Positions 1,095 through 54,249 of a stretch of DNA of 54,412 nucleotides are shown here, one piece after another (within the stretch, counting starts at the first letter, position 1; every line of letters begins with the position of its first letter). Where the stretch lies: IMG/VR virus record IMGVR_UViG_3300025543_000034, positions 1 through 54,412 of that record. One strand, given 5' to 3'. This DNA comes from a virus (lineage: Duplodnaviria; Caudoviricetes). The notes under the pieces are model-generated. The model worked only from the letters and a program-made list of their open reading frames with translations. It was not told where the DNA came from and searched no databases. Position numbers and translations under genes: made by a program.

Positions 1095-1466
1095 TTAATT
1101 TTTCATTTTCAGTTTAGAGTTGTTGACATCTAATCTTGATATATCTTTAGATTCAGCTTTACCCTTACTATTATTGTTGTTATTATTGTTATTAGAATTG
1201 TTATTGCTAGGTACATAAATAGGTTCACTCCTATGTCTGTAATAGCCTTCATTGTACCAGTTGTTATAATATCTAGGATAACTGGGATACGATACAATAT
1301 TATAATAAACATTTGGTTTAATCATGTTTATAGGTAATCTCAAGGTGTCACCTTGCTCTGTTACAGCTAACACGTGAGTTATCTGTATTTTAGGTTTTTT
1401 AGTGTGTGTTCCGCAACTACTTACAATAGCAGCTAGAACAAAAAGGACAATTTTCCATAATTTCAT
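1095..1466 (-). CDS. Predicted lipoprotein (possible outer spanin)
   Basis: MKLWKIVLFVLAAIVSSC lipobox-like signal; Tyr/Pro-rich middle; poly-Asn tract. Confidence 0.5.
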   Translation of the reverse strand: MKLWKIVLFVLAAIVSSCGTHTKKPKIQITHVLAVTEQGDTLRLPINMIKPNVYYNIVSYPSYPRYYNNWYNEGYYRHRSEPIYVPSNNNSNNNNNNNNSKGKAESKDISRLDVNNSKLKMKN

Positions 1467-1467
1467 A

Positions 1468-4400
1468 TTATTTATTTGTTAATTCAATTATTTTATTAAC
1501 TCTATCATCTTCGTATTTAAGCTCTTTTATTTCTTTTTTAGTTAAACCTAGATTTATTAAAGATTTTACTTGATCAGATTTATTAGTATCAACTATAGAG
1601 TCTCTACGTTTCATCTGTTTTATTTCTTCTTTAGTTTTACCTTTATACTTTTCAAGTTCTTTTAGCCTTTTTCTTTCGGCTCTATCATCTATAACTTTTT
1701 GTTTTCTAGCTTTTTCTTTAGCTTCTTTAGATTCTATCTTGACAAGATCTCTTTCTTCATTTTTAGTACCAACATCCCATGTTCTATAACCTAATGCTAA
1801 TGCTATCCTTTGAAATGTAGTGTTTCTAGCATCTAATGTTTCTACAATAGCGTCTATTTCTACAACCGCTCTTTCAAGTGGTAAGTTAGTTATTGCTTCA
1901 GCAAGTGATGCTACAACTTGATACGAAGGGCTAAGGTTTACTTTACCTTTTAGTGTTATATCCCAACCTTGCTCTTTTATAACTTCTTTATTATAATCTT
2001 TAGCTTTTATAGCGTTGTTAATTTTTCTAAGCTTAGAACCAACAGGTGGACTTAAATTTAAAGCTTCTAATAATGTATTTCTATGATCTTTACCAAATGC
2101 ATCTTTTTTCTCTTCTTTAAAATATGTCATTATAGTATTTTTAAGAGTAGCTACAATAGCTCCATATACTCCAGAACCTCTAAGCATAGTGTCAACCATA
2201 CTGTTAACTATTCTTTCTCCTTTTTTATCAAGAGTTTGTTTTTTCTTTTCTTCATCTTCTTCATCACTAAATCCAGGTATAGTAGCAAATAAAGCATTTT
2301 GCAATGTAGCAAATATCATACCTTGAATAGCACCGTAGTATATCATTTTAGATACATTAGTTTTTTGATCACCTCTTCTATTGATAAAGTCTCTTGATGC
2401 TTTGTTAAATATTCTAGTAACCTGAGCAGGTGTATTTTGAAATGCTAAAAGTAATCTACCTAATGTGCTAGCTTGTTGTTGCGATATTAACATAGGATCA
2501 GCTGACTGTTGCGACACGTCTGATGTTGCAGAAAAATCTTCAAAAGCTTTATTAGCAGCTTCTTGCTCTGATAAACCTTGTTTTTTATAAGTATTTAGTC
2601 TGTTTCTATAAAACGTAGCACCACCTGATGCAATAGCAAAACTATCCGCAAGCTGTGTTGGTGTAAAACCTATTTTAAGTAAATAACTTAATATTGCTTG
2701 TGGCTTGTTTAAAGCACCTTTAGCAGCATTAGCTAGTTCAGCTTCATTAACATCTTTTCTTAATCCTGATCTTCTTTGTTTTAGCTTAGGTGAGTTCCAC
2801 AATGTAGCAAAATCTTTCCAATACTGAGGTTGATTTCCAAAAGCTAAAGCAGCTTTATATGGATTGTTATCTGACCAGTTTAAAAAATTCACAGAAGATA
2901 TGGTTTGTAACAATGCTGATTTTCTGTTAAAAAACATTATAGCACCAATAGAGTTGTTTACCCAGTTGTTAAATTGATTAGTTAATTTATTGGTACCAGA
3001 AGGTCTGTTAGTACCATTTTTCATACGATACAATGAGTCTTCCATTGCTTCTCTCCAATTTGTACCTAAAGCAACTTCCATTTTATTTAGGTTTTCTTTA
3101 GAAAATATTACATCAGAGTTTGCTATAAATTCAGCTAAAAATTGTTTTCTACCAACTTTGTTTGTTAAATTATTTAAATCAGATATTAAACTTTCAGAAT
3201 CCCAATAAGCACTAGGTTCAACCCATTTATCTCTTTTACTAATTAATAGAGTTGAGTCGTTAAATAAATTTAACTGAGGGTCATTTGTAACAACACTATT
3301 TAATTTTTTAATATCACGTTTAGATAAACCTGGTATTTCAAAACCAGCTCTGGTCCAAAGATTAACTCTCAAAGCCTGATCAAAAGTAAACTCAGTACCT
3401 GGTACAATTTTACCTAGTTTTTTAGCTACTTTAGGATTTTGTTTTAATAAAGTGGCATAATCATTTTTTAAAGCTTGCCTATACTTGTCTATATCTGCAA
3501 TACCTTTTTGATATGGTTTTACTAAATTATCTTGTACCCATTTTTGTTGTTGTTCACCTTTTCTACCTTTACCATATAAATCATACATTAAACCTTGAAA
3601 ATCCTGAGCACCTGAAGCAATTAATTTAAAGTTTCTTACCCCTGCGCCACGTCTTTTAGCTACAATATCAGAAAACCTTTTTCTTGCATCAATACCTTTA
3701 GTATCGCTAATTATATTGTTTATATCCACATCTAACTGAACAGTATCTGGTAATGAAGGTTTTAGTTTAGGGTTTTTAGCTAAAGCATCTTGACCTTTTT
3801 TTATTGTATTGTTTGCTTTTTGTATAGAAGGAGCTATTTTTATAAAATTATTTAAAGATTCTGCATTATCTAAACTTACATCTGATTCTACTACATTAAA
3901 TGTTACTCCTTTTATAGCCTGAGGAACAACTCTCATAGTTATTTTAGCAGTTCCTTTGCTTTTACCCGTCACACCTGGTCTTATATAAGCATTTAAAGGT
4001 TGTTTACTAATGTCTGGTAGATTATAAATATTATTTTGACCCATGTTAAAAGTTCCTAAACCTTGAAACTGTATATCGTGTACTGGTATTTTTTTAGCAG
4101 CGTAAACATCACCAACATTTCCAAAATTTAAACCTAAAGAACCACTAGCATCATCAAAACTAATTAATCTTAAAGCTCCTTCAGCTTTTAGTTGATCATA
4201 TACTTTAGCTGGTATAGGATCTCCAATTTTATTCATTGTAACTCCATATTTAGCAGCAGCAGCTTGAAAACCTTTAAAGTCTAAATTTTTTATTTTTTCT
4301 ATTACAGCATCTGGCAAACCATTAGATTTTTTTATAGTTACTTTACCAGTATTTATATCAACATCATTTATTGTCCAACTACTATATTGAGCATTGGTCA

Positions 4401-7400
4401 TTTTTATTTCTACATTCCAAGGTGTGCCTTCTATTGTTGACTTAAAGTCTGGATCAAATGAACTTTTTGGAGGTGTTATACTTAATACTTTAAAAGCAGG
4501 ATTTTTTTTAGAAACATCTATTGCTACAGCTATATTTTGAGCTTCATATATAGTTCCTTTAATTCCTTTTTCAGCTAATCTTAAAACTTCAGTTACAAAT
4601 TCAGGAGTTCCTTGTAAAATATCCATGTTTTTAGCTGAATCTTGTAAAATATTTTCTACTATATCTCTTGCATCTTTTTTAGATAAATTAGCATCATTAG
4701 CTAAACTAAACATTAGTTTAGATTTACCTCTTTCAAGATTAGCTTTAGCTAAAATAGTTCTACTAACTTGAGGTTTTGTTTCAATTATATTTCTAGCACC
4801 TCTGTTAGCCATCTGTTCTGCAACACCTTTTAACAATCCTTTTATTGTTTGTGACTCAGAAGCTCTAGGAACATAATTAGGATCAACCTTACCATCCTTA
4901 ATACCTATAGCGGCATCGTAAACCTTGTTATCAAACTTTTTAGGAGTTCTAACTAAATTATTACCAACTCTTTTAGGTGGATTAAAAAATGTATTTAATA
5001 TGTTTCTACCTAGACCTAAACTTTCACCACCTACTTTTACAGGTTTACCACCTTTCTTTTTAGACGCAACAGTTTGTACTTGTTTATTAGCTTGGCCTAA
5101 AACTACATTTTTAATAAATGGTTTAGCAGTTAGTAATATTCTTTGTGCTTTTAAAGATTCAGACTTAGATAAGTTGTCTGCAGCATTAGATAATTTATTT
5201 GCAGGTATACCTATGGCTTTTGCTAAAACGTCATAAGGTGTTATAGCTTGTAATTGTTTAGATGTTAAGTTAGGACTAGTTATATCAATACCTTTTTCTT
5301 GTGCTAGTTTGTTTACACCATCTGTAAAATTTTTTTCAAATTGTTTTACATCAATTGATGGATCAGCTTTTTTAGCAAAATTCATTACATCAATTATAGG
5401 CTTAGTATCTGGAGTTGTTTCTGTTTCTGTTGTAGTATCCGCAACTTGTTGTGCTTGTGGACTATCTAAACTCTGTGTAACACCTTGTTCTGATGATTCA
5501 ACACCTAGTTTAGTTGCTAAAGCATTTAATCTTTGCATACCTGTGTTAGCCATATATCTATCAAAAGAAACTTGATTACCGTCTTTATCTTTTTTAGTTG
5601 GATCATATTTTTGTGCAATTTCAGCCAACTCTGTTTTAGCACTATCTAAATATGTTGCTTTATCTAATCCAGCTTTTTCTCTTATGTTTTTAGGTATACC
5701 TCTATAATATTTTGCAACAGCTCTATTAGCTACTTTACCAACCATTGTTTCAACTTGTGTAGCATCTACACCTTTAACTGTAGGTAAACTAGCTTTAGTT
5801 GTTGTTTTAGTTTGAGTTGCTGGTTTAGTTAATTTACCTTTTGCACCTTCTTTAGCGACTTGTAATGTTTGAGTACTTAATTTACCTTTGCTAATATCTT
5901 TTTGAAAGTTTTTAACAAAACTAACTACATCACTACCTTTATTAAATTTAGTTTGCCAGCCTAATTTACCAGCTGCATCAGTAATTAGTTTACCTATTTT
6001 TCCTAAAAAAGTTTCAGGTAATTTAATATCTTTTGTAGCTATAGCATCACCTAATAAGTTCATAGCTTCTTCATAAGCATCTGCTTCACTTATTTTACCA
6101 GCTTCTACAGCTCTTTGATATTGATCTATTCTACCAGCAAACTTAGATGTATCTATACCTTCTATTTTACCTAATTCAGATAAAACACTTTTACCAAAAG
6201 CTTTTTGTGCAGCAGGGTTACCTTTAAAGGTCTGAGCCATAATACCATGTAAAAACTCATGAGCAGCAACATTTACCTGTTTGTTTTTAAGCGCAGCGGC
6301 TTTGTTTATTATTATCTCACCTGTTTCTGGATTAAATGAACCAGGTAAGTTAGGATCTAACATGTCTTCTAATTCTACTGAATCAGAGTCTTTTGCCATA
6401 GATAGCTTTTGATTATTTCTTTTTTGTCTTTCTATATTTTCTTTACTTACATCTTCTATTTCTGTAACACTAACTCCATCAATATCTTGAGCCATGTCTT
6501 GTATAGTTTCAGTAGTAGCTTTATAATGTGCTTCAATAGCTGGTTCCATTATAGCATCTCTTTCTTGTGAAAGCTTACCATTTTCAAACTCTAAGCCATT
6601 GATTATTTCACTTTTCGCTGCACCATCTAAATTATTATCTGCTCTTATTATTTCAATAGATCTATTGTTATCAAACTCTTTTTTATGTATACTTATTAAT
6701 TCAGACTTTTGTTCTGGAGCTAAATAATCAGTGGACATAGCTTGATCAACTCTTATTTCTGAATTAGCAACAACTAAGTCATCTATTTTAGTTTCTATTA
6801 TATTTTTTGTTTTTGGATCAAGATTTTTATTTTTTAACTGATCAGATAAATTTATTATACTTGCAGCGTTAGCATCAAAACTAGCGTTTAAATTTTTAGT
6901 TTTAAAAGGCGCTAACATTTTGTTACCAATAGATGGTGCTCTAAATAATACACCACTCATGAATACACCACCAACGTACATCTCTTCTAAACCATCATAA
7001 AGATTTACATCTTTACCAAGAATATATCTATCTGCTAAGTTTTCAGAAAATCCAGCAAACATTTCACCTAAACCTTCTTCATTTACATCAAAAGCAAGCG
7101 CTTTGGCTTTGTTAAAATTGAAAATATTTTTCTTTAATCCTTCTGTAAAACTAGTTTTAACTTTATTTACTGGTATGTTTTTTACTTTTAATCTTTTTAA
7201 TTGGCCTAAAGTTAATCTTTCAGATAAAATTTCACCACCCGCAGTCATTAAAGCACCTCCATACATTTGCCAAGGTGAATAAGTGGCACCATCTTTCATT
7301 TCAAGTTCCATAGATCTAAACTTACCACCACCTGAAGCGGCACCTAATAAAGGTAATGCAGCTTGTGGTGCAAGAACCATAAGACCTATTTGAGGACCTT

Positions 7401-8994
7401 GAGTAGCGGCAAACTGTAAACCCCAATTAGCCCAATCTTTAGCACCATTTATATCATCATAAGATATAGGTTCAGCTACAGCAGATCTTAAATAATCACT
7501 ATAACCATATAATTCATCAAACTTATCTTCATCATTCCATAGTTTATCAAATTCAGGACTAGCTTTTGCTAAAGCATTAACAGCCATTTGAGCTGGACCA
7601 AACTTTTCTGGCAATGCAGAACTCATAGCTGGTAAAATTATATTTTTAACTATATTTTTAGTACTAAATTTATCAGCAAATTTTGTTATATTTATTCCTA
7701 AATCAAGAGCAGACGCACCAAGTAAACCGCCTAATTGAGTTATTCCGTTATGGTTTCTACCTATTAAATTACCATACTCTGCTATCTCTTCTACATTATT
7801 TACAATAAACTCATTATCTAATTGATTTTGCTCTAACACAGCCATGTGTTTATTTCTTTCTTTAGCTAGTTTCTCTAAATCAATTTTTAATTGTAAGTAC
7901 TCTTCTGTTGTTTCAGGCTTTTTCTTTGTTAATTTTTCAAATTTTTTGTTTATTAAATTTATATTATTAGCAGCATTTTTACTTGTAACTGTTAACTCAG
8001 CAGATGCTTTTTCCATCTTTCCGCTTAACATATCATACATTTCGCTTAACTCTTCCTGTTCTTCTGGCATACCTAAACCATATTTACCATCTGAGTTTTT
8101 AGCTTTTATAATATTATCAACAACATTTTTTTTATATTTTTTTACAGTTAAATCATCTGTATAAAGCTTGCGAGCTTCCATTAATATTTCTTGCTCCGTA
8201 AACTCTTTTTTAGGATCAGATAATTTTAATTTTTCTTTTGCTTTTTTTATAAAATCTTTTTGAGTATCTATTTTGTCTTGTGACTCTGAATCTAACGCAA
8301 TATCTTCACTACGGAATAAATCACCTACATCATCAATTAATTCACTAAGACCCGCTGCAATTCCGAAAGCCTCGTAATCATCACCTTTAACTTGTTCATC
8401 ATAATAATCTTGATCTCTTAAATTCTTAGGATTTAAATCAACATTATTAACACTACCGTCTTCATTTAGTTTAAATATTTCGTTAACACTATTATTAACT
8501 TCTTTTACTTGATCAAGTGTTAAATCACTTTCAGATTCAGCTTCTTGAAACGCTTTCCATTTATCATAATCTTCACCAAATATTTTTTTATTTAATTTTT
8601 CTGGATCTAATTTTGCTTTAGAAACATACTCTTCTAGTTTTATCTCTGGTACACTGGGTTTTGTTGGTACAAAATAATTAGCTTGTTGGCCAAAAGCACC
8701 TTGTTCTATATTAGATAAACCATATTGTCCTGGTAAATCTCCAAAAACCATATTATCAGGATTATTAGTTTCTACAGCTTGTTGATTAACAGTATCTTGC
8801 TCTTGTTGTTGTTCTTTTTCTTCAGTTGTTTGAACATCGCTAAAACTATTTATGTTTAGTGGCTCTGCACCAAGGTTTTTAGTTAAAAAACTATTTATGT
8901 TTAGTGGCTCTGCACCAAGGTTTTTAGTTAAAAAACTATCTACCTTTTCATCAGGAATATTGTATGTCTTACCATTAAACGTGTATCTTGGCAT
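1468..8994 (-). CDS. Giant internal/ejected virion protein, polyvalent (zincin HEFLH, sigma region-2-like, PD-(D/E)xK-like segments)
   Basis: 2508 aa, last of three genes after the nozzle; Gly/Ala hydrophobic helices in the N-terminal third; AAHEFLH..EE; YDPTKK..SFDRY..SLD; YE..DPDF..VEIK. Confidence 0.75.
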   Translation of the reverse strand: MPRYTFNGKTYNIPDEKVDSFLTKNLGAEPLNINSFLTKNLGAEPLNINSFSDVQTTEEKEQQQEQDTVNQQAVETNNPDNMVFGDLPGQYGLSNIEQGAFGQQANYFVPTKPSVPEIKLEEYVSKAKLDPEKLNKKIFGEDYDKWKAFQEAESESDLTLDQVKEVNNSVNEIFKLNEDGSVNNVDLNPKNLRDQDYYDEQVKGDDYEAFGIAAGLSELIDDVGDLFRSEDIALDSESQDKIDTQKDFIKKAKEKLKLSDPKKEFTEQEILMEARKLYTDDLTVKKYKKNVVDNIIKAKNSDGKYGLGMPEEQEELSEMYDMLSGKMEKASAELTVTSKNAANNINLINKKFEKLTKKKPETTEEYLQLKIDLEKLAKERNKHMAVLEQNQLDNEFIVNNVEEIAEYGNLIGRNHNGITQLGGLLGASALDLGINITKFADKFSTKNIVKNIILPAMSSALPEKFGPAQMAVNALAKASPEFDKLWNDEDKFDELYGYSDYLRSAVAEPISYDDINGAKDWANWGLQFAATQGPQIGLMVLAPQAALPLLGAASGGGKFRSMELEMKDGATYSPWQMYGGALMTAGGEILSERLTLGQLKRLKVKNIPVNKVKTSFTEGLKKNIFNFNKAKALAFDVNEEGLGEMFAGFSENLADRYILGKDVNLYDGLEEMYVGGVFMSGVLFRAPSIGNKMLAPFKTKNLNASFDANAASIINLSDQLKNKNLDPKTKNIIETKIDDLVVANSEIRVDQAMSTDYLAPEQKSELISIHKKEFDNNRSIEIIRADNNLDGAAKSEIINGLEFENGKLSQERDAIMEPAIEAHYKATTETIQDMAQDIDGVSVTEIEDVSKENIERQKRNNQKLSMAKDSDSVELEDMLDPNLPGSFNPETGEIIINKAAALKNKQVNVAAHEFLHGIMAQTFKGNPAAQKAFGKSVLSELGKIEGIDTSKFAGRIDQYQRAVEAGKISEADAYEEAMNLLGDAIATKDIKLPETFLGKIGKLITDAAGKLGWQTKFNKGSDVVSFVKNFQKDISKGKLSTQTLQVAKEGAKGKLTKPATQTKTTTKASLPTVKGVDATQVETMVGKVANRAVAKYYRGIPKNIREKAGLDKATYLDSAKTELAEIAQKYDPTKKDKDGNQVSFDRYMANTGMQRLNALATKLGVESSEQGVTQSLDSPQAQQVADTTTETETTPDTKPIIDVMNFAKKADPSIDVKQFEKNFTDGVNKLAQEKGIDITSPNLTSKQLQAITPYDVLAKAIGIPANKLSNAADNLSKSESLKAQRILLTAKPFIKNVVLGQANKQVQTVASKKKGGKPVKVGGESLGLGRNILNTFFNPPKRVGNNLVRTPKKFDNKVYDAAIGIKDGKVDPNYVPRASESQTIKGLLKGVAEQMANRGARNIIETKPQVSRTILAKANLERGKSKLMFSLANDANLSKKDARDIVENILQDSAKNMDILQGTPEFVTEVLRLAEKGIKGTIYEAQNIAVAIDVSKKNPAFKVLSITPPKSSFDPDFKSTIEGTPWNVEIKMTNAQYSSWTINDVDINTGKVTIKKSNGLPDAVIEKIKNLDFKGFQAAAAKYGVTMNKIGDPIPAKVYDQLKAEGALRLISFDDASGSLGLNFGNVGDVYAAKKIPVHDIQFQGLGTFNMGQNNIYNLPDISKQPLNAYIRPGVTGKSKGTAKITMRVVPQAIKGVTFNVVESDVSLDNAESLNNFIKIAPSIQKANNTIKKGQDALAKNPKLKPSLPDTVQLDVDINNIISDTKGIDARKRFSDIVAKRRGAGVRNFKLIASGAQDFQGLMYDLYGKGRKGEQQQKWVQDNLVKPYQKGIADIDKYRQALKNDYATLLKQNPKVAKKLGKIVPGTEFTFDQALRVNLWTRAGFEIPGLSKRDIKKLNSVVTNDPQLNLFNDSTLLISKRDKWVEPSAYWDSESLISDLNNLTNKVGRKQFLAEFIANSDVIFSKENLNKMEVALGTNWREAMEDSLYRMKNGTNRPSGTNKLTNQFNNWVNNSIGAIMFFNRKSALLQTISSVNFLNWSDNNPYKAALAFGNQPQYWKDFATLWNSPKLKQRRSGLRKDVNEAELANAAKGALNKPQAILSYLLKIGFTPTQLADSFAIASGGATFYRNRLNTYKKQGLSEQEAANKAFEDFSATSDVSQQSADPMLISQQQASTLGRLLLAFQNTPAQVTRIFNKASRDFINRRGDQKTNVSKMIYYGAIQGMIFATLQNALFATIPGFSDEEDEEKKKQTLDKKGERIVNSMVDTMLRGSGVYGAIVATLKNTIMTYFKEEKKDAFGKDHRNTLLEALNLSPPVGSKLRKINNAIKAKDYNKEVIKEQGWDITLKGKVNLSPSYQVVASLAEAITNLPLERAVVEIDAIVETLDARNTTFQRIALALGYRTWDVGTKNEERDLVKIESKEAKEKARKQKVIDDRAERKRLKELEKYKGKTKEEIKQMKRRDSIVDTNKSDQVKSLINLGLTKKEIKELKYEDDRVNKIIELTNK
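8842..8939. repeat. Perfect 45-bp tandem duplication (2.2 copies), in frame
   Basis: 8842-8886 identical to 8887-8931, plus 8 bp; encodes SFLTKNLGAEPLNIN twice. Confidence 0.95.
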
Positions 8995-9005: not shown

Positions 9006-10082
9006 TTAATTTTCTACAAACTCAGCAAATTCATCAACTTCTTCAACCACTTCTTGGCTTTTAGGTTGTTGTTTTGGTTTAGGATCACCTAGTGGAAACT
9101 CTGTTCCTACTTGTGTTTCTAAAAACCATTTTTTATAATCTTCTTGAAATCTTTTTTGTTGGTTATCTTTCAATGCTTTAGCTGGTTGTAAATAGTTATC
9201 TGTAACTTCAGCTAATATATTGTTGTTAAAAGCTATAACTTGATCAAAACTTTGAAACTCTTCAAGTAAACCAGATGTTATTTTATCCATTTCAGTATTA
9301 AACTGTAAACTATTACCTATTAAATCTTTATCTACAATGTAAAAGTCTTGAACCATGTTAGCATCTAGATCTTTTGTTTTTATTTCTAATTGACCATCAG
9401 CTTTCTTTTTTCTATAAACTTCAGTAACACCACCTGTTAATGTTTTATTTTCTTGATCACCACCAACTTGTTTTTGTTCAAATATTTCAGGGCTAGCTAA
9501 TTTAAAACCTTCATTTTGATCTAACGTGTTAGGTATGCTTACAAACATATCTTGAGTTTCCGACAACTCATTGAGTTTATTTAAATATATTCTTTCAACA
9601 AACGAACCGTCTTTTTCATATATTTCCCAAGCTAGTTTATTTATATCACCATCAACTGCTTTTATATCTACTTTACCTCCAAGATCTCCATTTAATATGC
9701 TTAAAGCTAAAAATCTACTTACAGGTGTACCCATTAAATCAAGACCACCCATTAAACCTGCGCTTTGTACCATTTCATTCCAAACCTCGGTATTACCAAG
9801 CATGTTTTCTAAACTAACTTTTATGTTCTCAACACTAGCCATTATTAAATCGCTAAACTTTCTGTCATATACAGGATTTTCACTAGTACCATTTGTAAGT
9901 GCTAGTTGCATATCTGCATATTGTTTTATAAAAGGATCAAACAAAGATGCATAATCAATAGGCTCTACCTTACTATCACTATAACCAAGTTCATAAGAAA
10001 GTCTAGATTGTTGTTCTGATATAGCAAACTTAATCTGCTCGTTGGTTTTTTTGTTTTCTATTAGTTTTTCTTTTAATGCCAT
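9006..10082 (-). CDS. Probable internal/ejected virion protein
   Basis: 358-aa acidic ORF between the pilot-like gene and the giant protein. Confidence 0.5.
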   Translation of the reverse strand: MALKEKLIENKKTNEQIKFAISEQQSRLSYELGYSDSKVEPIDYASLFDPFIKQYADMQLALTNGTSENPVYDRKFSDLIMASVENIKVSLENMLGNTEVWNEMVQSAGLMGGLDLMGTPVSRFLALSILNGDLGGKVDIKAVDGDINKLAWEIYEKDGSFVERIYLNKLNELSETQDMFVSIPNTLDQNEGFKLASPEIFEQKQVGGDQENKTLTGGVTEVYRKKKADGQLEIKTKDLDANMVQDFYIVDKDLIGNSLQFNTEMDKITSGLLEEFQSFDQVIAFNNNILAEVTDNYLQPAKALKDNQQKRFQEDYKKWFLETQVGTEFPLGDPKPKQQPKSQEVVEEVDEFAEFVEN

Positions 10083-10088
10083 AGTTTG

Positions 10089-10946
10089 TTATATTAAGGC
10101 TGTTAACGCTTTACTTGTTTCATCAGACATTGGATTAGCTGCATCATATGATTTAAAACCACCGGCAGCACCAACCGCACCAATTTGTGTTAAACCACCA
10201 ATTGCACCCATCATAGCTTTTGTACCTTGATTATATGCGGCAGTTTCTCTTTGTTGTGCACCTGTTATTTGTTGTCTTGTGTATCCAATTTTACTATCTT
10301 CTCTTCTTTCTTGAGCGTTAAACATAAATGTTTTACCCATAGCATCAGCTTGTTGTGTTCTTCTGCCTTCTTGAATATCTACGTTTTGTAATCTTCTTTG
10401 TTCTTGTATTTGAGCTTGTTGTAAATACTGTTCACCTTGCGCTCTTAGTTTTTCATTAGCAGCTTCTTGTTGTTCTATACTTGCAGCAACACCTTTTTTA
10501 CTTTGTAAAGCAGCTTGAGCTAAAGCGGTTGCTCCACCAGCGCTAGCACCTGTAGCTCTTAATGTATCTAATGTATTAGCCAAAGCAATGTCAGCTTCTT
10601 CTACTTGCATAGCTGCACCAGCTGTAGAAACACTTAAATTACCGTATGGATTACTTAAATTACCACTAAGATCTTTAGCTAATGAACTTAAATCTTTTGT
10701 GTTTGAATATGGGTTTACTATTTTTTGCCTGCTTTTTTCTAAACTGTTTAGTTCACCTTTTAACCTTCTTTTTTCAGCAGCAGCTCTTCTTCTGGCTCTT
10801 CTAGCTCTACCAGCGCCAAATAAACCACCAACCAATGATCCAACACCTTTTACTATACCTGCAGCAGCTAAAGGTCCTATCCCCATGGTCACACCATCAG
10901 GCCCAACAAATAAAAATTCGTATAATATATTTAAAACTTCTTCCAT
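10089..10946 (-). CDS. Probable ejection/pilot protein
   Basis: Gly/Ala-rich hydrophobic ends (GIVKGVGSLVGGLFGAG; GAIGGLTQIGAVGAAGG) flanking a Gln-rich coiled-coil, typical of podophage ejection proteins. Confidence 0.6.
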   Translation of the reverse strand: MEEVLNILYEFLFVGPDGVTMGIGPLAAAGIVKGVGSLVGGLFGAGRARRARRRAAAEKRRLKGELNSLEKSRQKIVNPYSNTKDLSSLAKDLSGNLSNPYGNLSVSTAGAAMQVEEADIALANTLDTLRATGASAGGATALAQAALQSKKGVAASIEQQEAANEKLRAQGEQYLQQAQIQEQRRLQNVDIQEGRRTQQADAMGKTFMFNAQERREDSKIGYTRQQITGAQQRETAAYNQGTKAMMGAIGGLTQIGAVGAAGGFKSYDAANPMSDETSKALTALI

Positions 10947-10952
10947 AATATT

Positions 10953-12284
10953 TTAATATGATGATTCAACAGTGTCAGAAGATACTGCAAACAATTCTCT
11001 TTTTTGGTTTATACTATTGTCTAAGTTAAACTTAAACGTGCTAAAAAATCCTTTTACACCTGTCATACTTGCTCCCCACAATATCTCTCCTTTCCCTGGT
11101 GATGAATTATTTATAATATTAGCAAAGTATTTATTTTCTTTTCTTTTAAATTTATTAGAAAACATTTCGCTTTCTAAATCAGTTAGGTTACTTGGTAAAC
11201 TGTATTTAGATATTGGTACTAAAGCTATGTCACCAGAACTAGCAACTATACTACTAACGGTCCAGTCATTATTACCTTCATAATTAACTGTTTTAAATAC
11301 TTTTACCGTAGATGGTGAAGAGTTTAAAACAACTGTTACATCAGATGGAAATATATTGTCAGGCGCATCGTAAAAACGACCATATGCACTATTGCCATAA
11401 TGACTATATAACTTACCAGCGTTTGTAGAAAAGAAAGTAGATGTTAAACTAAACATAAAGCTTGGTTTAAAACTAAAGAAACTAGTCCAACCTTGCACGC
11501 CTTCATCAAACGAAGTTGTTTTATAACTTGAAGCGGTTTGTATAGACAGCATATAATTTTTAGTATGATTATCCCAACCACCTACTATTCTAGTTATACC
11601 GTCTTGTGTAAGTTGATCTCTAAAGAAATCATGCATACCATAACCTGATATTTCTATAATTTCACCACCTGTTGTTAATCTTAATACACAACCTCTTTTT
11701 CTATCTGTAAAGTATTTTCTATAACCATAAACAGCAAAACTAAAAGGATCTGTAGCTATACCATACTTACCAGCAAATGGAACTATTTGTCCTATAACCA
11801 TTCTACCTGAAGCTGTTAAAGCTTGACCTTCAGCTGTATATATAGCATCTTTATCTATTAAAGCTCTATTAACTTTATCTTCTTGAAATATAATTAAGTT
11901 AGTATCTTCTGCAAATAACTTCTGTATAGAGCCATGTGCTGGATCTACGCTTCTAGTTATGTCTTCACCTACTGAAAATTCATTTGTTTGATTAATACCT
12001 GTTCTAGAGTTAAACACTCCTGAGTATATGATTGTGTTAAACCTATTTTGATTATTAGGATTATCTTCAACTATATGAGCTTTAACGCCTAGATCAGTTA
12101 TAGTGTTGTTATAACCACCTCTTATTCTAGCTTCTTCAATAAACCAATCAGTTGCATTGTCATTAGCATAAGCTTGAGGTACAGTTGCATAAGGCGCTGT
12201 TGGTTGTGGATTAGCATCTACAACGTTTGACATCTTCTTCAACCAGTATGAGTTAAAATATTTTAGTTCTAAAGTAGCGCCCAT
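10953..12284 (-). CDS. Tail nozzle/stabilisation protein, C-terminal-type part (P22 gp10 / crAss muzzle-like)
   Basis: Beta-propeller-like motifs HGSIQKL..DTNLIIFQEDK, YGIATDP, YFTDRKRG, GWTSFFSF, KRKENKYFA. Confidence 0.65.
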   Translation of the reverse strand: MGATLELKYFNSYWLKKMSNVVDANPQPTAPYATVPQAYANDNATDWFIEEARIRGGYNNTITDLGVKAHIVEDNPNNQNRFNTIIYSGVFNSRTGINQTNEFSVGEDITRSVDPAHGSIQKLFAEDTNLIIFQEDKVNRALIDKDAIYTAEGQALTASGRMVIGQIVPFAGKYGIATDPFSFAVYGYRKYFTDRKRGCVLRLTTGGEIIEISGYGMHDFFRDQLTQDGITRIVGGWDNHTKNYMLSIQTASSYKTTSFDEGVQGWTSFFSFKPSFMFSLTSTFFSTNAGKLYSHYGNSAYGRFYDAPDNIFPSDVTVVLNSSPSTVKVFKTVNYEGNNDWTVSSIVASSGDIALVPISKYSLPSNLTDLESEMFSNKFKRKENKYFANIINNSSPGKGEILWGASMTGVKGFFSTFKFNLDNSINQKRELFAVSSDTVESSY

Positions 12285-12291
12285 ATTCTTT

Positions 12292-12320
12292 TATTATCAC
12301 TTATTTTTATATATTATTAC
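12292..12320 (-). promoter_or_regulatory. Putative late promoter
   Basis: GTAA-N16-GTGATAATA. Confidence 0.55.
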
Positions 12321-15300
12321 TATGGCCAAACATAATCACCTGGCACTGGTCTAGCGCAAGAAGTATTACCTGATACACAACCTCTTGCATACGTATCACT
12401 ACACGTATTACTATCACCACTAATCTTTATGCCATCAGTTCCAAATTTAGCACTTACTCTTATCTGATCAAAAGGTTTTTTAGGTGAAGTAGTTGAAACC
12501 TTAAAGCTTAAAAAGTTAGGGAAATTAGAACCAACCGTAGCACTTGTCCAAGGGCTTGATAACGTGGAATTCGTATAAAATAAATCAACATACTGCGCAT
12601 AAGGCATTGGTGCATATCCAGATGTGTTTCCAGTAGCACAATTATAACTAGTTTGAAAACCAGAAACATCATACTTGTAATACTTAGGATTAGCTGTACT
12701 TACTTCATTTACTCCATTTTCAATAACACAAGTACTATAATATAAATCATTAGAGTTTACCCATAAACATAATGAATCTGAATAAGCACCAGCGGTTTGA
12801 TTGTAGGCATCTTTTGCAATAATTACATATTCACCGGGTTGATCAAAAGCAAAAGCTGTAGAAGCATACTTAGTTGTATTAAGCGAGCTGTTTAATAAAT
12901 TAGCATCAGCCTCTATATTAGAATTATTTACATCATTTATTCGTGAGCTATTTAAACTAGTCCAATCACCAGATCCGCTTGATCTATGAAAAACAAGCCA
13001 TTCAACATAAGAGTTAGTAAAGTTAGTTCCACCAGCTCCAGTATATGTTTGCTGCATGTTACATTGAAATACCACTGTACCTTGTGTAAGTGCGCTTCCT
13101 AGTTTGTAGACATAATTTGAATTACTGTTATCTGCTGGTATATTATTAATACCTGGTAAACTATTAAAATTTGTTCTAGTATAGGTGTTATTAGAAATAT
13201 ACCAAGCTGCAGAAATAGGAGCTGAACTTGTAACAGTATCAGGTATTATAGATTGTTGTGTAGCTGGTATTCCAGCACTTACAACACCTTGAGCTTTACA
13301 ATTTGAGATAATACCACTATTAACAGCTACAGCACCTACAGTTATAACCTGTGGTTTAGTTACGCTTAAAGAATTACTCTGCGCAACTCCATTTACAATT
13401 GCATCTTCTATTTTTAAACTTAAAGTATAAACACCTATAGGTGTAGATGTATTTTTGGTCACAATACCTGTTGTTGAGTCAACTGAAAAATATGAACCAG
13501 GAGACTGTGAAACTATACTATATTTTAATTGAGCAGCACTATTTGTTGCTGAGCCATTATATCCATTTCTAGTAACACCAGTTGCATCACCAGCGCTAAC
13601 CGTAACATTTGGTAAACTAGAACCAACCGCGAAAACTGGTGGTAAATTAGTAAGCGATTCAGTTACTACAGTAGAACTAGTGTCGCCACCTACAGTTGTC
13701 CATGTAAATGTAAAAGTATAAGTTTCTTTTGAATTACCATTATTTTCATAACCTGCGTTAGAATAAACGAATGTATTAACAGCTGTTTGTAGTTTATATC
13801 CTGTTCCAGATGTTATTAATTTAAAATCACCTGTAAAACCATCAGCTAAGTTTCCTGTAGCTCTAGTTTGCTGAGCACCATCAATCACCGTCATACTAAC
13901 AGCGCTTATATTTGTATTAGAAAAATTACTACCTTGATTGTTTTGTGGATAAAAAATAGCAGTTATATCTGTGTTAGCAGCCATACCTTCATTGTGTGAA
14001 TAACTTAAAGCAGATAAAGCAGATACACCATCAAACCCAGTATTTATGTCAGCATTTAAATCAGCTATTAAACCAGCTGTAGATGTTTCATAAAATAATT
14101 GTAATAAGCTTTCAACAGGTTCTGTTTCAACAATAGAAAGAAAAGGTGTAGTTAAATTTGCTGTTAAAACACCTATGTTAGTTGTTCCTGCGTTAGAACT
14201 AGCTAATCTACTTATTAAAGGGTTTGTATCTAACTGATAAAAATTATCTATACCTGAGTTTGATAATTCATTGAAACCCATGTTTAAATCTACAGCTGTA
14301 GCAATTGTATCAGCTGTCATATTTAATGGTAGTATTTGAGTACCACTTATGCTTACTGGAAAGTATTGAACATTGTCTGTTGCGGTATTGTTTACTCTAC
14401 CATATAATCTAACAGAACTTCTAAATTGTTTTTGTTGATCAGAGGTTTCATTTAAATCTCTAGGTATTTTGTTTATGTTATCATTAAGTAAAACAACATG
14501 AGCGGTTTTATTATTTTCATTCGTGGGATAAGGTGATGTTCCGCCGTGATCCGGATAACCATTTAAAAATCCTGGTAAATAGCAATTGTAATAATCTTGC
14601 TCTTGTTGTTTAACAACAACTTTATATGAATACCAACCTAAAGTATTAGGTAAAGTATAAGCAAATTTTGTATCAGGATCATTAGTTGTAGCAGAATATA
14701 AAAAATCATTTACTCTTCCTTCTGTTGTAACAACATATGGAGCTGTTCCAGTTACATTAGTTACTTTTACAAAATCTACATATTGACCTCTTAAGTATGA
14801 ATTGACAGTTGGTATACCAGTTGTTGGTGCACCACCAGCTAAAGTAAAACTATATGTAGTATCTGTTATTGTTGGAGTTCCCGTTATATTAAAACCATTA
14901 CTCATTTGTTCAGCATACAAACCTGGTGTTCCAGTAGTTGAATCAGCCGTACTTGATATAGCTGTGTTTATAACAACTTTTAAAGCATCACCAAACCACT
15001 GTTTTAAGTTTTGAGTTGTTGAAGAATAAGGGTGATAAAAAGTTGAACCACCAAAAAAGTCAGAACCAACAGTGGTTCCTTGATCAACAGAAGATAATAT
15101 AACTGAAGATTGTCTACCAAACTTATCTGATAAAATAAAACCTACTTGATAGTTTCTATTTTGTTTTAACGTGTGGTTAGGATATTCAGCCCAGTTAGTA
15201 AAAACTGTAGAGTTTTTTACACTAGCACCAACGTTATAATCTAATGTTGCAGGTGGAGTATGTTGGCTTTGAAAATTACCATACATAACTCTATTACCAG

Positions 15301-16537: not shown

Positions 16538-16539
16538 GT

Positions 16540-17949: not shown

Positions 17950-17955
17950 ATTTTA

Positions 17956-18882
17956 TTAACTTTTTTGATTCATTTCTTGTTGTTGCACTTGTGAAGCTGC
18001 AACTTGTACTATTTCAGGATCTCTAATTACAACCCCAGCATATAATAATATTTTTAATATTAATTCAGTTTGTTCTGAACTATGTAATTCAAAGTTATTA
18101 GATGACGTAGGGCTAAATACATATTGATTTGTTCCTGTAAAATTCCATATAGGAGTAATTGGTTTTCTTAAGTAATTAACTGATATTCCGCTTTGTATAC
18201 TTGTAGGATAAACGTTTATATAATTGTTTTTATAAGTATATATTGGGTATTTAGTAGAAGGTTTGGTAAGATTAGATCCCAGTAAATGATATAATTCACT
18301 TGAACCAACTCTTTGCAACTCTTGTATAGGTAAAGCTCCTGCAGAATAAATGACTGTTCCTAATCTATAAAACTGTTTAGGATATATATTTATAACAATT
18401 ATTTGTCCAGCGGTTGGTTGAGAATTTAAAGTTAATGTTGCTCCGCTTAATGAAAAATCATTATTAGAAAGTTGAACATTATTTAAAAACACAACTGGTA
18501 CACCACCAGAGTTTGATAAAGCTAAAGTATCTCCAGTTAATGTATATGTTAAACCAGGGTTAGTTGCTGTAAATTGTTGACTCGAGGAAGAAAGTCCTGA
18601 GTATTGTGAAGGAATTTGAAAGCCACTTGTTGTATAAGTAGCTGTATCTATTTCTTTAAATATAGATATTTTTTCATCTATATTAATTTGTCTATCAGAA
18701 TAATCTAAATCGACTTGCGGCACACGCAATTGCTGATTCATATCTTCAGCGTATTTTTCAAATATTTCTAATTGAACTTGACCACCTATTTTATTAAACT
18801 CAACAGGCGTCATATAACCTCTCTGCTCTTTATTTAGTATTAATAAAACGGTTTGATATACAGTGTTTACGTTTATTGCCAT
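17956..18882 (-). CDS. Head-tail adaptor / tail ring protein
   Basis: NKEQRGYMTPVEFN N-terminus, YLRKP..P.W, helical C-terminus; position after the capsid genes. Confidence 0.6.
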   Translation of the reverse strand: MAINVNTVYQTVLLILNKEQRGYMTPVEFNKIGGQVQLEIFEKYAEDMNQQLRVPQVDLDYSDRQINIDEKISIFKEIDTATYTTSGFQIPSQYSGLSSSSQQFTATNPGLTYTLTGDTLALSNSGGVPVVFLNNVQLSNNDFSLSGATLTLNSQPTAGQIIVINIYPKQFYRLGTVIYSAGALPIQELQRVGSSELYHLLGSNLTKPSTKYPIYTYKNNYINVYPTSIQSGISVNYLRKPITPIWNFTGTNQYVFSPTSSNNFELHSSEQTELILKILLYAGVVIRDPEIVQVAASQVQQQEMNQKS

Positions 18883-18900
18883 TTTAATATTTTAGTTAAT

Positions 18901-18932
18901 AGTGATTTGGGCCACCTAAGTGACCCTTCACT
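18901..18932 (-). other. Intergenic stem-loop in the leader of the adaptor gene
   Basis: AGTGA..GGG.CAC-CTAA-GTG.CCC..TCACT imperfect inverted repeat; no U-tract. Confidence 0.55.
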
Positions 18933-18937
18933 ATAAT

Positions 18938-18966
18938 TATAGTTACATATTATTGTAACTTTTTAT
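18938..18966 (-). promoter_or_regulatory. Putative late promoter
   Basis: ATAA-N16-GTAACTATA. Confidence 0.45.
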
Positions 18967-19714: not shown

Positions 19715-19735
19715 GATATAATATAATATAATTAA

Positions 19736-53216: not shown

Positions 53217-53252
53217 TTACAAACATAATACGACTACATGTAGATAATATAA
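53217..53252 (+). promoter_or_regulatory. Putative early promoter, copy 1
   Basis: TTACAAAC-AT-AATACGA-CTACATGT-AGATAATATAA. Confidence 0.8.
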
Positions 53253-53277
53253 ATGTAACTAAAAAACAATATACAAT

Positions 53278-53415
53278 ATGACTAATCATTTAAACAATCA
53301 AGATATTCTCACTCAAATCAGAATACTATTTCCATACGACAATACAATGTGTAAAGAAAAGTACAATGAAACAATACAAGATTATCTATATGAAGAAATA
53401 ATAAGTAAATTGTAG
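53278..53415 (+). CDS. Small early protein (not in ORF track)
   Basis: MTNHLNNQDILTQIRILFPYDNTMCKEKYNETIQDYLYEEIISKL downstream of motif copy 1. Confidence 0.55.
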   Translation: MTNHLNNQDILTQIRILFPYDNTMCKEKYNETIQDYLYEEIISKL

Positions 53416-53503
53416 TAATTAATTAAATATAATGTAAGTTAATTAGCACTCGCGTGCCATACCTCTTACACACTAATGTTAACTAAACAAATATACACTA
53501 ACA

Positions 53504-53539
53504 TTACAAACTAAATACGACAACAACAAGATAATATAA
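53504..53539 (+). promoter_or_regulatory. Putative early promoter, copy 2
   Basis: TTACAAAC-TA-AATACGA-CAACAACA-AGATAATATAA. Confidence 0.8.
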
Positions 53540-53570
53540 ATGTAAACTAATAATAAATAAATATAATAAT

Positions 53571-53798
53571 ATGAGTAATTTAATTTCAAAAAGATTTGTC
53601 ATCAGACAGTCACTAGTAGGTAAAAATGTAACTATCGAATTCACTAACAAAAAAGGTAAAAAGTATGTGTACAATCACGACAAAGCGTACAACATTATGA
53701 AAAGTAATCTAGAAAAAATGGCGTGTTTCAACAAATACAAGTCTTACACTGCAACTAATAATATTCCAGTTGTACTACGTGATAAAGAATTAGTGTAG
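53571..53798 (+). CDS. Small basic early protein
   Basis: 75-aa ORF after motif copy 2 with an A-rich leader. Confidence 0.75.
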   Translation: MSNLISKRFVIRQSLVGKNVTIEFTNKKGKKYVYNHDKAYNIMKSNLEKMACFNKYKSYTATNNIPVVLRDKELV

Positions 53799-53850
53799 TC
53801 ACTACTGCGAGTTCCACTTGTTTCTAACAGTATAAATTGCGAACAAGTAA

Positions 53851-53891
53851 TGACATAATGGTTTATGTGAGTTCGATTCTCACCATGTCAA
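53851..53891 (+). ncRNA. tRNA-like minihelix (acceptor-like stem plus T-arm)
   Basis: TGACAT/ATGTCA stem enclosing GTGAG-TTCGATT-CTCAC. Confidence 0.55.
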
Positions 53892-53913
53892 CTAACAATA
53901 TAAATATAATAAT

Positions 53914-54048
53914 ATGAGATGGACACTTAATACCCATTACGCTAAAGATATAGATCTTACTTGGGCAATAGTTCGCCAAATGTCTGGTGAACTAACAAGA
54001 GCAGACGTAGAAGGCATAATTTTAACACACCAATTTAATTCAATATAA
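53914..54048 (+). CDS. Small early protein (not in ORF track)
   Basis: MRWTLNTHYAKDIDLTWAIVRQMSGELTRADVEGIILTHQFNSI; same 18-nt start context as 53571. Confidence 0.6.
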   Translation: MRWTLNTHYAKDIDLTWAIVRQMSGELTRADVEGIILTHQFNSI

Positions 54049-54049
54049 T

Positions 54050-54244
54050 ATGGAAGAAATAAAAACATTTACAGGTGCAGAACTAGAAACGATGTTAAAA
54101 ATGGATGAAGCGATCAACGCTGTTCATAATCATGAAGTATTTATGCATCACTTACCAGATAACGGTTCACTAATACTATCAATAATAAACACTATTGCAT
54201 TAATATATGTAATTTACAAACAGAATACGAATAAAGTAAGATAA
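54050..54244 (+). CDS. Small early protein with C-terminal TM segment
   Basis: LILSIINTIALIYVIY hydrophobic stretch. Confidence 0.6.
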   Translation: MEEIKTFTGAELETMLKMDEAINAVHNHEVFMHHLPDNGSLILSIINTIALIYVIYKQNTNKVR

Positions 54245-54249
54245 TATAA
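54214..54249 (+). promoter_or_regulatory. Putative early promoter, copy 3
   Basis: TTACAAAC-AG-AATACGA-ATAAAGTA-AGATAATATAA. Confidence 0.8.

What the first reader, a model, noticed from the sequence alone, without database searches (positions are those of the whole stretch)
5430..5765. Sigma-70 region-2-like domain inside the giant ejected virion protein: candidate injected sigma factor
Seen: the 2508-aa protein contains VETMVGKVANRAVAKYY...YLDSAKTELAEIAQKYDPTKKDKDGNQVSFDRYMANTGMQRLNAL, followed by QSLDSPQAQQVAD. Known: sigma-70 regions 2.2-2.4 read roughly GL..A..KFDP..G..FSTYA...I, and an SLD linker follows in group 3/4 sigmas; N4 and crAss-like phages inject a whole RNA polymerase. I found no DxDGD/DFDID polymerase motif here. 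Inference: this phage may inject a sigma-like module, perhaps released by the neighbouring zincin, that redirects host RNAP to the strict early motif at 53.2-54.2 kb before any phage gene is expressed.
Basis: partly seen in the sequence, partly recalled or inferred. Interest (0 to 1): 0.85.

Follow-up and report, generated by a model that had tools for sequence, protein, structure and literature searches.

The report
Sigma-like module inside giant virion protein
A giant virion protein of a marine flavobacterial phage holds a small helical domain that folds like the core-binding part of bacterial sigma factors, so the phage may deliver a transcription factor with its DNA, but no test here shows that it does this job.

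Summary
The quoted peptide is real: residues 1081-1186 of a 2508-aa ORF (1468-8994, minus strand). By sequence alone it is not a sigma factor. Pfam Sigma70_r2 finds nothing in the window, and profile searches of PDB sequences find no sigma.

At fold level the sigma reading holds up moderately. The domain (aa 1066-1165) is modelled at pLDDT 90. In PDB and BFVD no match reaches E 0.001, but the well-superposing hits are almost all sigma region 2 (TM 0.45-0.53). Language-model neighbours are viral Sigma70_r2 clusters (score 0.92). A disordered linker and a second helical domain with faint sigma-4 hints follow.

The giant is probably a virion protein. It ends the structural operon, and its N-terminal third is homologous to the MS/MS-proven virion protein gp123 of Cellulophaga phage phi18:3.

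The proposed link to the early motif is not supported. The motif is almost unchanged across the phage family and the relatives' stand-alone sigma is well conserved, while this module diverges strongly.

Verdict: a probable sigma-derived module in a polyvalent virion protein. Its function is inferred. An injected sigma remains possible (about 0.2).

The parts
1468..8994 (-). Giant ORF, 2508 aa, last large gene of the structural operon; a polyvalent-type virion protein
   Evidence: ORF list and translation. 87 homologues in the protein collection. At least 592 related stretches in IMG/VR. 27 loci in genome contigs, mostly Flavobacteriaceae/Bacteroidota MAGs.
6601..7452 (-). aa 515-798, homologous to Cellulophaga phage phi18:3 gp123 and to a Tenacibaculum phage Gundel_1 'structural protein'
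   Evidence: BLASTP of P0001 aa 515-798 against gp123 aa 259-539: 23% identity, E 8e-9. Family profile A1 positions 200-828 against gp123 aa 22-611: E 4e-25. gp123 is annotated 'virion structural protein, experimental MS/MS'. Gundel_1 match: aa 511-697, 32% identity, E 3e-6.
6247..6261 (-). HEFLH zincin-type metal-binding motif (aa 912-916)
   Evidence: H912, E913 and H916 are kept in at least 90% of 26 sequences. Weak Pfam hits to putative metallopeptidase families on the piece 5755-6504: DUF6782 E 0.014, DUF3267 E 0.083.
5500..5799 (-). Sigma-region-2-like helical domain, aa 1066-1165 (helices at 1078-1097, 1102-1108, 1112-1128, 1144-1156, 1159-1162)
   Evidence: AF2 model of aa 1062-1170: pLDDT 90.4, pTM 0.80. 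Foldseek PDB: 11 of the 12 listed hits with rmsd <=5 A are sigma factors, TMq 0.40-0.53. BFVD: 13 of 50 listed rows are named sigma factors, top hit prob 0.97. hhalign against 20 ECF sigmas: P 0.0031 over 61 columns.
5395..5499 (-). Low-confidence acidic, Thr-rich linker, aa 1166-1200, holding SLDSPQAQQVAD (aa 1174-1186, nt 5437-5475)
   Evidence: pLDDT below 50 for model residues 116-149. By my reading of the rows printed, a clear S-x-D...A-x-Q-[VI] form recurs in about 10 of the 41 aligned relatives; the loose pattern of that script matched 17 of 41.
5089..5394 (-). Second helical domain, aa 1201-1302, a possible HTH with faint sigma-region-4 likeness
   Evidence: pLDDT 61-88 over model residues 151-240. 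The full-length Foldseek alignments to WhiG, SigI, sigma-H and sigma-D span 220-270 columns. In the hhalign window test, aa 1211-1320 aligns to sigma-4 columns 158-176, P 0.013. ESM hits to Sigma70_r4 clusters score only 0.75-0.76.
1765..3747 (-). Most conserved part of the giant (aa ~1750-2410); function unknown
   Evidence: More than 100 invariant columns among 26 sequences. No Pfam or PHROG family on the whole protein.
53219..54245 (+). Context only: three copies of the promoter-like motif ACAAAC-N3-ATACGA-N9-GATAAT (53219-53248, 53506-53535, 54216-54245) ahead of small + strand ORFs.
   Evidence: Found in 30 of 50 related records and 18 of 19 that are at least 90% complete.

Best explanation
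Residues ~1066-1300 of the giant protein form a sigma-derived module. It has a well-folded sigma-2-like helical domain, a disordered acidic linker and a second, HTH-like helical domain. The module is embedded about 150 aa behind a conserved zincin motif, in the middle of a ~2500-aa polyvalent virion protein of a Flavobacteriia-infecting podovirus-type phage (relatives: Pachyviridae-like Cellulophaga, Flavobacterium and Tenacibaculum phages).

Shown: the domain exists, folds with high confidence, and its nearest structural and embedding neighbours are sigma factors. It is present in nearly all relatives. The giant shares homology with a proteomically proven virion protein.

Inferred: the giant is packed in the head and leaves with the DNA. 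The module, free or still tethered, engages host RNA polymerase core and/or the entering DNA in the first minutes of infection. It could compete for core or recruit it to the phage genome.

A conserved stand-alone phage sigma, encoded in the part of the genome missing from this window, fits that role better.
For: Fold:
- AF2 pLDDT 90.4 and pTM 0.80 for aa 1062-1170.
- Foldseek PDB, domain alone: WhiG TMq 0.51, rmsd 3.0, prob 0.82; sigma-D 0.53/3.1; sigma-S 0.45/4.0; SigE N-domain TMt 0.55; RpoS region 2 TMt 0.50. 16 of 40 listed rows are sigma, and 11 of the 12 rows with rmsd <=5 A.
- Foldseek PDB, 255-aa model: 17 of 46 listed rows are sigma, including ranks 1-5.
- BFVD: the top hit is a phage sigma-70 factor (E 0.10, prob 0.97); 13 of 50 rows are named sigma.
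- ESM Atlas: 24 of 30 named hits are Sigma70_r2 sets, score 0.92.
- Pfam Sigma70_r2 is the weak hit in 2 of 41 relatives' modules (best E 0.014). It also hits a relative's giant ORF of 2683 aa (E 0.03), which I place at the homologous spot from the tblastn match.
- hhalign puts the module on sigma regions 2.1-2.4 in one register (P 0.0031).

Spread: profile iteration finds the module in 73 locus ORFs. Among the 19 near-complete relatives, 13 show it with the standard search and 4 more of the 6 others with a sensitive search. It sits 154-258 aa behind HExxH.

Virion: synteny and homology with phi18:3 gp123, which was identified by MS/MS.

Dependence on host RNAP: PF00623 in 0 of 19 relatives, with controls positive in 14 of 14.
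Against: - No single test is significant. No Foldseek hit reaches E<=0.001 in either library.
- TM around 0.5 is borderline for a shared fold.
- hhalign P 0.0031 is close to the best unrelated windows of the same protein (0.0059 and 0.0066 among 44 windows). With the 255-aa alignment P is only 0.047.
- Against the phage's own sigma, P is 0.065 and 0.29.
- Pfam and PDB sequence profiles are negative.
- An ESM score of 0.92 is reached by 4-10 in 100 shuffled proteins, and only 143 of 256 features are shared.
- In the hhalign alignment, the polar region-2.2 residues kept in the ECF sigmas used for comparison (AEDxxQE) are not kept here. That these residues contact the beta-prime clamp helices is recalled.
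- The module evolves fast: median identity 23%, and 20% for its first 110 aa, across 8 genomes. That is unusual for a factor that must fit a conserved polymerase.
- No control fold of another helical piece of the giant could be run.
Confidence: 0.5

Rival explanations
1. The module is an injected sigma factor, perhaps cut free by the zincin. It loads host core RNAP onto the strict early motif (ACAAAC-N3-ATACGA-N9-GATAAT) before any phage gene is expressed. The stand-alone phage sigma made from those transcripts then takes over.
For: - All the fold evidence listed under the best explanation.
- The early genes in the window are preceded only by the phage motif. No TAnnTTTG (the Bacteroidota -7 element as I recall it) occurs on the + strand beyond 52800.
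- The relatives show no multisubunit-type RNA polymerase: PF00623 in 0 of 19. The T7-type search is uninformative.
- In 2 of 10 relatives the stand-alone sigma gene sits directly behind a motif copy; in the other 8 no motif copy lies within the 1300 nt upstream. Something present at time zero must therefore read the motif.
- Motif, module and zincin are all near-universal in the family.
Against: - There is no co-variation. The motif is almost unchanged in genomes whose modules share 13-47% identity, while the stand-alone sigma in the same 8 genomes shares 57-92%.
- Two near-complete relatives (G031 and G033) have the motif but no detectable module.
- The sigma-4 part is only faintly supported.
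- The host promoter consensus is recalled, not tested.
- Co-occurrence is what shared ancestry alone would give.
Confidence: 0.2
2. The domain is an ordinary helical spacer or structural unit of an internal virion or ejection protein. It could act in packing, in ejection-channel assembly or as a protease substrate. Its likeness to sigma would then be convergence of a small helical bundle.
For: - All similarity scores are below significance.
- Small helical bundles often give TM around 0.5; one non-sigma protein, NttA, reaches TMq 0.47.
- Sequence conservation is low: mean column identity 19% in A5.
- Unrelated windows of the giant score hhalign P about 0.006 against sigma.
Against: Four separate tools all pick sigma rather than any other helical family: Foldseek on PDB, Foldseek on BFVD, ESM features, and Pfam weak hits in relatives. 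The second domain's faint hits are again sigma, region 4.
Confidence: 0.22
3. The module is a DNA-binding unit rather than an RNAP-binding one. It holds the leading genome end or the motif-rich region, either to organise ejection or to protect the entering DNA.
For: The second domain is HTH-like. Polyvalent proteins are described as carrying DNA-binding domains (passages of PMC5512222).
Against: No DNA-binding family is detected by Pfam. The best-folded part resembles sigma-2, which in sigma factors binds core and melted DNA only in the holoenzyme (recalled knowledge).
Confidence: 0.08

Closest known systems
Sigma-70 family, region 2 (Pfam PF04542), especially group 3/4 and phage sigmas
   Same: Helical domain of about 100 aa with the same helix order. 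Best structural neighbours are WhiG, sigma-D, sigma-H, sigma-S, SigE and phage sigma-70-like proteins. A K[YF]DP...F..Y......R stretch aligns with regions 2.2-2.4. An acidic linker and a second helical domain follow, as in two-domain sigmas.
   Different: It is embedded in a 2508-aa virion protein instead of standing alone. No Pfam match on this sequence. The polar 2.2 residues kept in the ECF sigmas used for comparison are not kept. A 7-residue helix lies between the first two long helices, and a beta-hairpin insert of about 15 residues lies between the 2.2-like and 2.3-like helices. The 2.3/2.4-like helix is only 13+4 residues. It evolves much faster than the phage's own sigma.
Polyvalent proteins of phages and conjugative elements (Iyer et al. 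2017, PMC5512222; abstract and passages read)
   Same: Giant multidomain protein in the structural module. It has a conserved zincin-like metallopeptidase motif, variable middle modules (EAD9 in relative P0017) and predicted delivery with the DNA. The paper names 'jump-start transcription' as a theme.
   Different: The word 'sigma' occurs 0 times in that paper's main text. [quoted passage not shown] No domain of that paper's catalogue was detected here by Pfam.
Virion RNA polymerases of N4-like and crAss-like phages (recalled; N4 ejection papers seen only as search listings)
   Same: Giant virion protein at the end of the structural region of a podovirus. The idea is the same: bring the transcription start machinery in with the DNA.
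   Different: No polymerase motif (no D.D.D) and no RNAP Pfam family in the relatives: PF00623 in 0 of 19, while the PF00940 search is uninformative because its control did not ring. At most a specificity factor would be delivered, not an enzyme.
Cellulophaga phage phi18:3 gp123
   Same: Same position, as the last gene of the structural operon. Its N-terminal ~600 aa are homologous to the giant family (E 4e-25). Identified in virions by MS/MS according to the record.
   Different: 1935 aa. No HExxH motif and no convincing sigma-like module (best domain E 0.0012-0.004 at scattered places). The conserved C-terminal region is matched only faintly (domain E 0.0072, profile positions 1464-1593).

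Membership tests
Sigma-70 family | Sequence match to Sigma70_r2 (PF04542) over the curated cut-off | tested here: not met
   No hit on the protein or its pieces at E<=10. Six-frame search of the window: 0 candidates. 2 of 41 relatives' modules hit, best E 0.014, far below significance.
Sigma-70 family | Sigma-2 helical fold | tested here: inconclusive
   Confident model (pLDDT 90.4). Best-superposing PDB hits are sigma-2 at TMq 0.40-0.53 and rmsd 3.0-4.8 A, but no hit reaches E<=0.001.
Sigma-70 family | Conserved region 2.2 polar residues that contact the beta-prime clamp helices | tested here: not met
   In the hhalign alignment the ECF consensus AEDxxQE aligns with DKATYLDSAK. The A5 consensus shows no conserved polar residues there.
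Sigma-70 family | Region 2.3/2.4 aromatic and basic residues | tested here: inconclusive
   An aromatic residue (Y/F) and an Arg 8 residues later are among the only majority-conserved columns of A5. Equivalence to the sigma residues is not shown.
Sigma-70 family | Region 4 HTH (PF04545/PF08281) | tested here: inconclusive
   No Sigma70_r4 family appears in the Pfam lists. hhalign window 1211-1320 against sigma-4 columns gives P 0.013. ESM hits to Sigma70_r4 clusters score only 0.75-0.76, below the tool's 0.9 mark.
Sigma-70 family | Binds RNAP core and confers promoter-specific initiation | not testable with these tools
   Needs biochemistry.
Polyvalent virion proteins (Iyer et al. 2017) | Very large multidomain protein encoded in the phage structural module | tested here: met
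   2508 aa, downstream of terminase, portal and structural genes on the same strand.
Polyvalent virion proteins (Iyer et al. 2017) | Zincin-like metallopeptidase domain | tested here: inconclusive
   HExxH is kept in at least 90% of 26 relatives, but Pfam peptidase hits are only weak (E 0.014 and 0.083).
Polyvalent virion proteins (Iyer et al. 2017) | Packaged in the virion and delivered with the DNA | not testable with these tools
   Indirect only: homology and synteny with the MS/MS-identified phi18:3 gp123.

The most novel reading that the evidence does not exclude
A phage with no RNA polymerase of its own carries a sigma factor inside its capsid, as one module of a giant ejected polyprotein. 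At time zero this module loads host core polymerase onto non-host promoters. One product of those promoters is the phage's conventional sigma, which then takes over. That would be a two-sigma relay whose first member is delivered as protein.
Probability: 0.2. Interest if true: 0.85.

Novelty: new variant of a known kind. Interest (0 to 1): 0.58.

Why it matters
Phages that start infection with non-host promoters are known to bring in a whole polymerase (N4, crAss-like, phiKZ-like) or to modify the host enzyme (T4 Alt). I found no report of a sigma-type specificity factor delivered as virion protein. The five literature searches gave none. The polyvalent-protein paper and the flavophage paper each contain the word 'sigma' 0 times in their main text.

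The phage group is large. At least 592 related stretches occur in IMG/VR, and the early motif occurs in at least 119 stretches. It infects ecologically important marine Flavobacteriia. If the module binds RNAP, it would explain how these phages fire a promoter class unlike the host's. It would also add a new domain type to polyvalent proteins. If it does not, the finding is a fold curiosity inside an otherwise unexplained giant protein.

Tried and rejected
- Whole-protein Pfam and PHROG scans gave nothing useful.
- A PDB sequence search with the full-length profile gave only coiled-coil noise (SMC, CFAP). Region profiles gave no sigma.
- tblastn of the giant against cultured phages matched only Gundel_1, aa 511-697. 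megablast of the first 25 kb found no match.
- The giant of the closest complete record by terminase, MW202828.1 (3859 aa), is not related by any of my profiles.
- Complex prediction of the module (A5) with residues 1-400 of a Flavobacteriaceae MAG beta-prime (A7) scored 0.00 twice. The verdict was 'no answer' and the controls were not run. I draw nothing from it either way.
- hhalign against the phage family's own stand-alone sigma gave P 0.29 (A5) and 0.065 (A4), so no evidence of paralogy.
- A crAss- or N4-like polymerase reading is rejected: no D.D.D motif and PF00623 in 0 of 19 relatives. The PF00940 search is uninformative because its control rang nowhere.
- The co-occurrence test of motif, module and stand-alone sigma discriminates nothing, because all three are near-universal.
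- A look for a shared late-promoter motif upstream of the minus-strand genes gave only a loose TGTAAC recurrence, and I did not pursue it.
- My first motif pattern had the wrong spacing and found nothing; one search corrected it.
Full report
**Observation.** The window is a 54,412-bp linear virus record that CheckV rates 85% complete. All large genes lie on the minus strand. The finding lies in one ORF at 1468-8994 (minus strand), 2508 aa. The quoted peptide runs from residue 1081 to 1186, nt 5437-5754. HEFLH is at aa 912, and the giant has no D.D.D motif.

**Setting.**
- PHROG and Pfam scans place the giant at the end of a structural operon. Upstream on the same strand lie tail fibres with Peptidase_S74 chaperone ends (36084-52285) and a GroEL (33709-35268).
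- Closer to the giant come the large terminase (24867-27071), the portal (22497-24866) and several 'virion structural protein' families (9006-21266).
- By terminase, the nearest cultured phages are podoviruses of Flavobacterium, Cellulophaga (phi18:3, phi38:1), Tenacibaculum and Maribacter.
- In phi18:3 the last gene of the same operon is gp123 (1935 aa), annotated as a virion structural protein from MS/MS.
- gp123 aa 22-611 match the giant family profile (E 4e-25), and P0001 aa 515-798 match it by BLASTP (E 8e-9). This is the basis for calling the giant a virion protein. That it is ejected is inference by analogy with other podovirus internal proteins.

**The family.**
- 87 homologues of 1400-3200 aa were found with the region query.
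- At least 592 related stretches occur in IMG/VR, and 27 loci in bacterial MAG assemblies, mostly Flavobacteriaceae/Bacteroidota.
- In an alignment of 26 full-length proteins the C-terminal ~660 aa are extremely conserved and HExxH is kept in at least 90%. The N-terminal and middle parts vary.
- One relative carries an EAD9 effector-associated domain.
- This architecture matches the 'polyvalent protein' concept of Iyer et al. 2017 (PMC5512222; abstract and passages read).

**Is the segment sigma-like? Sequence level: no.**
- Pfam finds no sigma family on the protein or on pieces at E<=10. PF04542 finds nothing in six frames of the window.
- Profiles of 14 and 41 family members find no sigma among PDB sequences.
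- Scanned one by one, 2 of 41 relatives' modules give Sigma70_r2 as a weak hit, best E 0.014.
- In one relative record the Pfam model touches a giant ORF of 2683 aa at E 0.03. From the tblastn match I place this at the homologous spot.
- I built a comparison set of 20 ECF sigmas from three Bacteroidota MAGs.
- hhalign of the 41-sequence domain alignment (A5) against that set aligns 61 columns across regions 2.1-2.4.
- With the 255-aa alignment P is 0.047.
- As a control I slid 44 windows of 110 aa along the giant family alignment. Two unrelated overlapping windows scored P 0.0059 and 0.0066. The third best, aa 1211-1320, aligned to sigma-4 columns at P 0.013.
- The profile-profile signal is therefore at the edge of noise.

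**Fold level: moderately yes.**
- AF2 with the 41-row alignment models aa 1066-1165 at pLDDT above 90. A linker follows at pLDDT below 50, then a second helical domain at 61-88.
- The domain alone (aa 1062-1170) gives pLDDT 90.4 and pTM 0.80, with a helix order that fits sigma-2.
- Foldseek of the 255-aa model against PDB gives no E<=0.001. Even so, ranks 1-5 are WhiG, SigI1, sigma-H, SigL and sigma-D, and 17 of 46 listed rows are sigma factors, aligned over 220-270 columns.
- The domain alone again gives no E<=0.001. Of the 12 listed rows with rmsd <=5 A, 11 are sigma-2 domains:
  - WhiG: TMq 0.51, 3.0 A, prob 0.82.
  - sigma-D: 0.53, 3.1 A.
  - SigE N-domain: TMt 0.55.
  - RpoS region 2: TMt 0.50.
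  - The one exception is NttA.
- Against BFVD the top hit is a cyanophage sigma-70 factor (E 0.10, prob 0.97), and 13 of 50 rows are named sigma factors.
- ESM-Atlas features of the 255-aa piece give 24 of 30 named hits in Sigma70_r2 sets of viral clusters at 0.92. The tool states that 4-10 in 100 shuffled proteins reach 0.9.
- The second domain alone scores only 0.75-0.78, with Sigma70_r4 clusters at ranks 2-3.
- No test is significant alone, but every tool picks the same family. I put a true sigma-2-like fold or descent at about 0.8, and a complete sigma-2 plus sigma-4 arrangement at about 0.5.

**How general is the module?**
- Three rounds of local profile search found it in 73 locus ORFs.
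- Among the 19 near-complete relatives the standard search found it in 13. A sensitive local search added G005, G010, G028 and G032. G031 and G033 remain without it.
- It always lies 154-258 aa behind HExxH.

**The proposed target.**
- The motif ACAAAC-N3-ATACGA-N9-GATAAT occurs three times at the right end of the window on the + strand, ahead of small ORFs.
- It is found in at least 119 IMG/VR stretches.
- With up to 2 mismatches it occurs in 30 of 50 giant-bearing records and in 18 of 19 that are at least 90% complete. There are 1-13 copies per genome, on one strand in all but one record, and none for the reversed control pattern.
- No TAnnTTTG lies on the + strand of the early region. The host consensus is recalled, not tested.
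- The relatives show no multisubunit-type RNA polymerase: PF00623 in 0 of 19, with the control positive in 14 of 14. The T7-type search is uninformative because its control did not ring.

**A stand-alone sigma in the relatives.**
- The relatives encode a stand-alone sigma in an open frame of 251-271 aa. PF04542 is over its cut-off in 10 of 19 and hits 14 of 19 at E<=1.
- Of the 5 records that PF04542 missed, a profile of this sigma finds the gene in 2.
- The gene lies in the motif-driven module. In 2 of 10 genomes it sits directly behind a motif copy.
- The window ends before that region.
- In the same 8 genomes this sigma is 57-92% identical (median 65%). The giant's module is 13-47% identical (median 23%).
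- A nearly invariant promoter fits a conserved reader better than a fast-evolving one.
- It does not remove the problem that something must read the motif before the phage sigma exists.

**Conclusion.**
- The injected-sigma-reads-early-motif mechanism is unproven and is weakened by the lack of co-variation.
- I found no published description of a sigma-like module in a virion protein. The word 'sigma' is absent from the main text of PMC5512222 and PMC8776804, and the jumbo-phage review treats sigma factors and polyvalent proteins separately (passages).

Noticed in passing
window 53219-53248, 53506-53535, 54216-54245 (+): Promoter-like motif ACAAAC-N3-ATACGA-N9-GATAAT, three copies ahead of small + strand ORFs. 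The third copy ends a few bases before an ATG, so that transcript may be leaderless. The motif is near-universal and strand-specific in the phage family, with up to 13 copies per genome.
   Followed up: yes
relatives only: L284-L293, L296, L297 (e.g. L289:1375-2133): A conserved stand-alone sigma factor of about 253 aa (regions 2, 3 and 4 visible) in the early/middle module of 16 of 19 near-complete relatives. The window ends before this region, so its own copy is not seen.
   Followed up: partly
window 1765-3747 (-), aa ~1750-2410 of the giant: The most conserved part of the giant family, with more than 100 invariant columns in 26 sequences, rich in invariant N, Q, S, G and R. It has no Pfam, PHROG or PDB sequence match. 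Its function is unknown and it may be the real core of the protein.
   Followed up: no
window 8848-8937 (-), aa 20-49: Exact tandem duplication of a 15-aa unit (SFLTKNLGAEPLNIN twice) near the N-terminus of the giant. It could be real or an assembly effect.
   Followed up: no
window 33709-35268 (-): Phage-encoded GroEL-type chaperonin (Pfam Cpn60_TCP1 E 3e-55; PHROG 5725 E 3e-134). The related record MW202828.1 has GroEL and GroES at the same place.
   Followed up: no
window 36084-41105, 41107-44613, 46728-48566 (-): Three large tail-fibre proteins, each ending in a Peptidase_S74 intramolecular chaperone domain. Two further fibre-like ORFs lie at 44614-46728 and 48575-52285.
   Followed up: no
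window, upstream of the minus-strand genes ending at 370, 18882, 28377, 35618 and 52910: Short TGTAA(C)-containing AT-rich stretches recur upstream of several minus-strand genes. This may be a late promoter element. It was seen by eye only.
   Followed up: no
MW202828.1 741-12320 (L161): The closest complete genome by terminase carries a 3859-aa giant at the syntenic place. It is unrelated by my profiles and has two HExxH motifs. Giants at this position are swapped or diverge beyond recognition between lineages.
   Followed up: partly
P0017 aa 739-779: A close relative of the giant (80% identical in the query region) carries an EAD9 effector-associated domain (PF19962, E 1e-7) that the window's protein lacks.
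   Followed up: no
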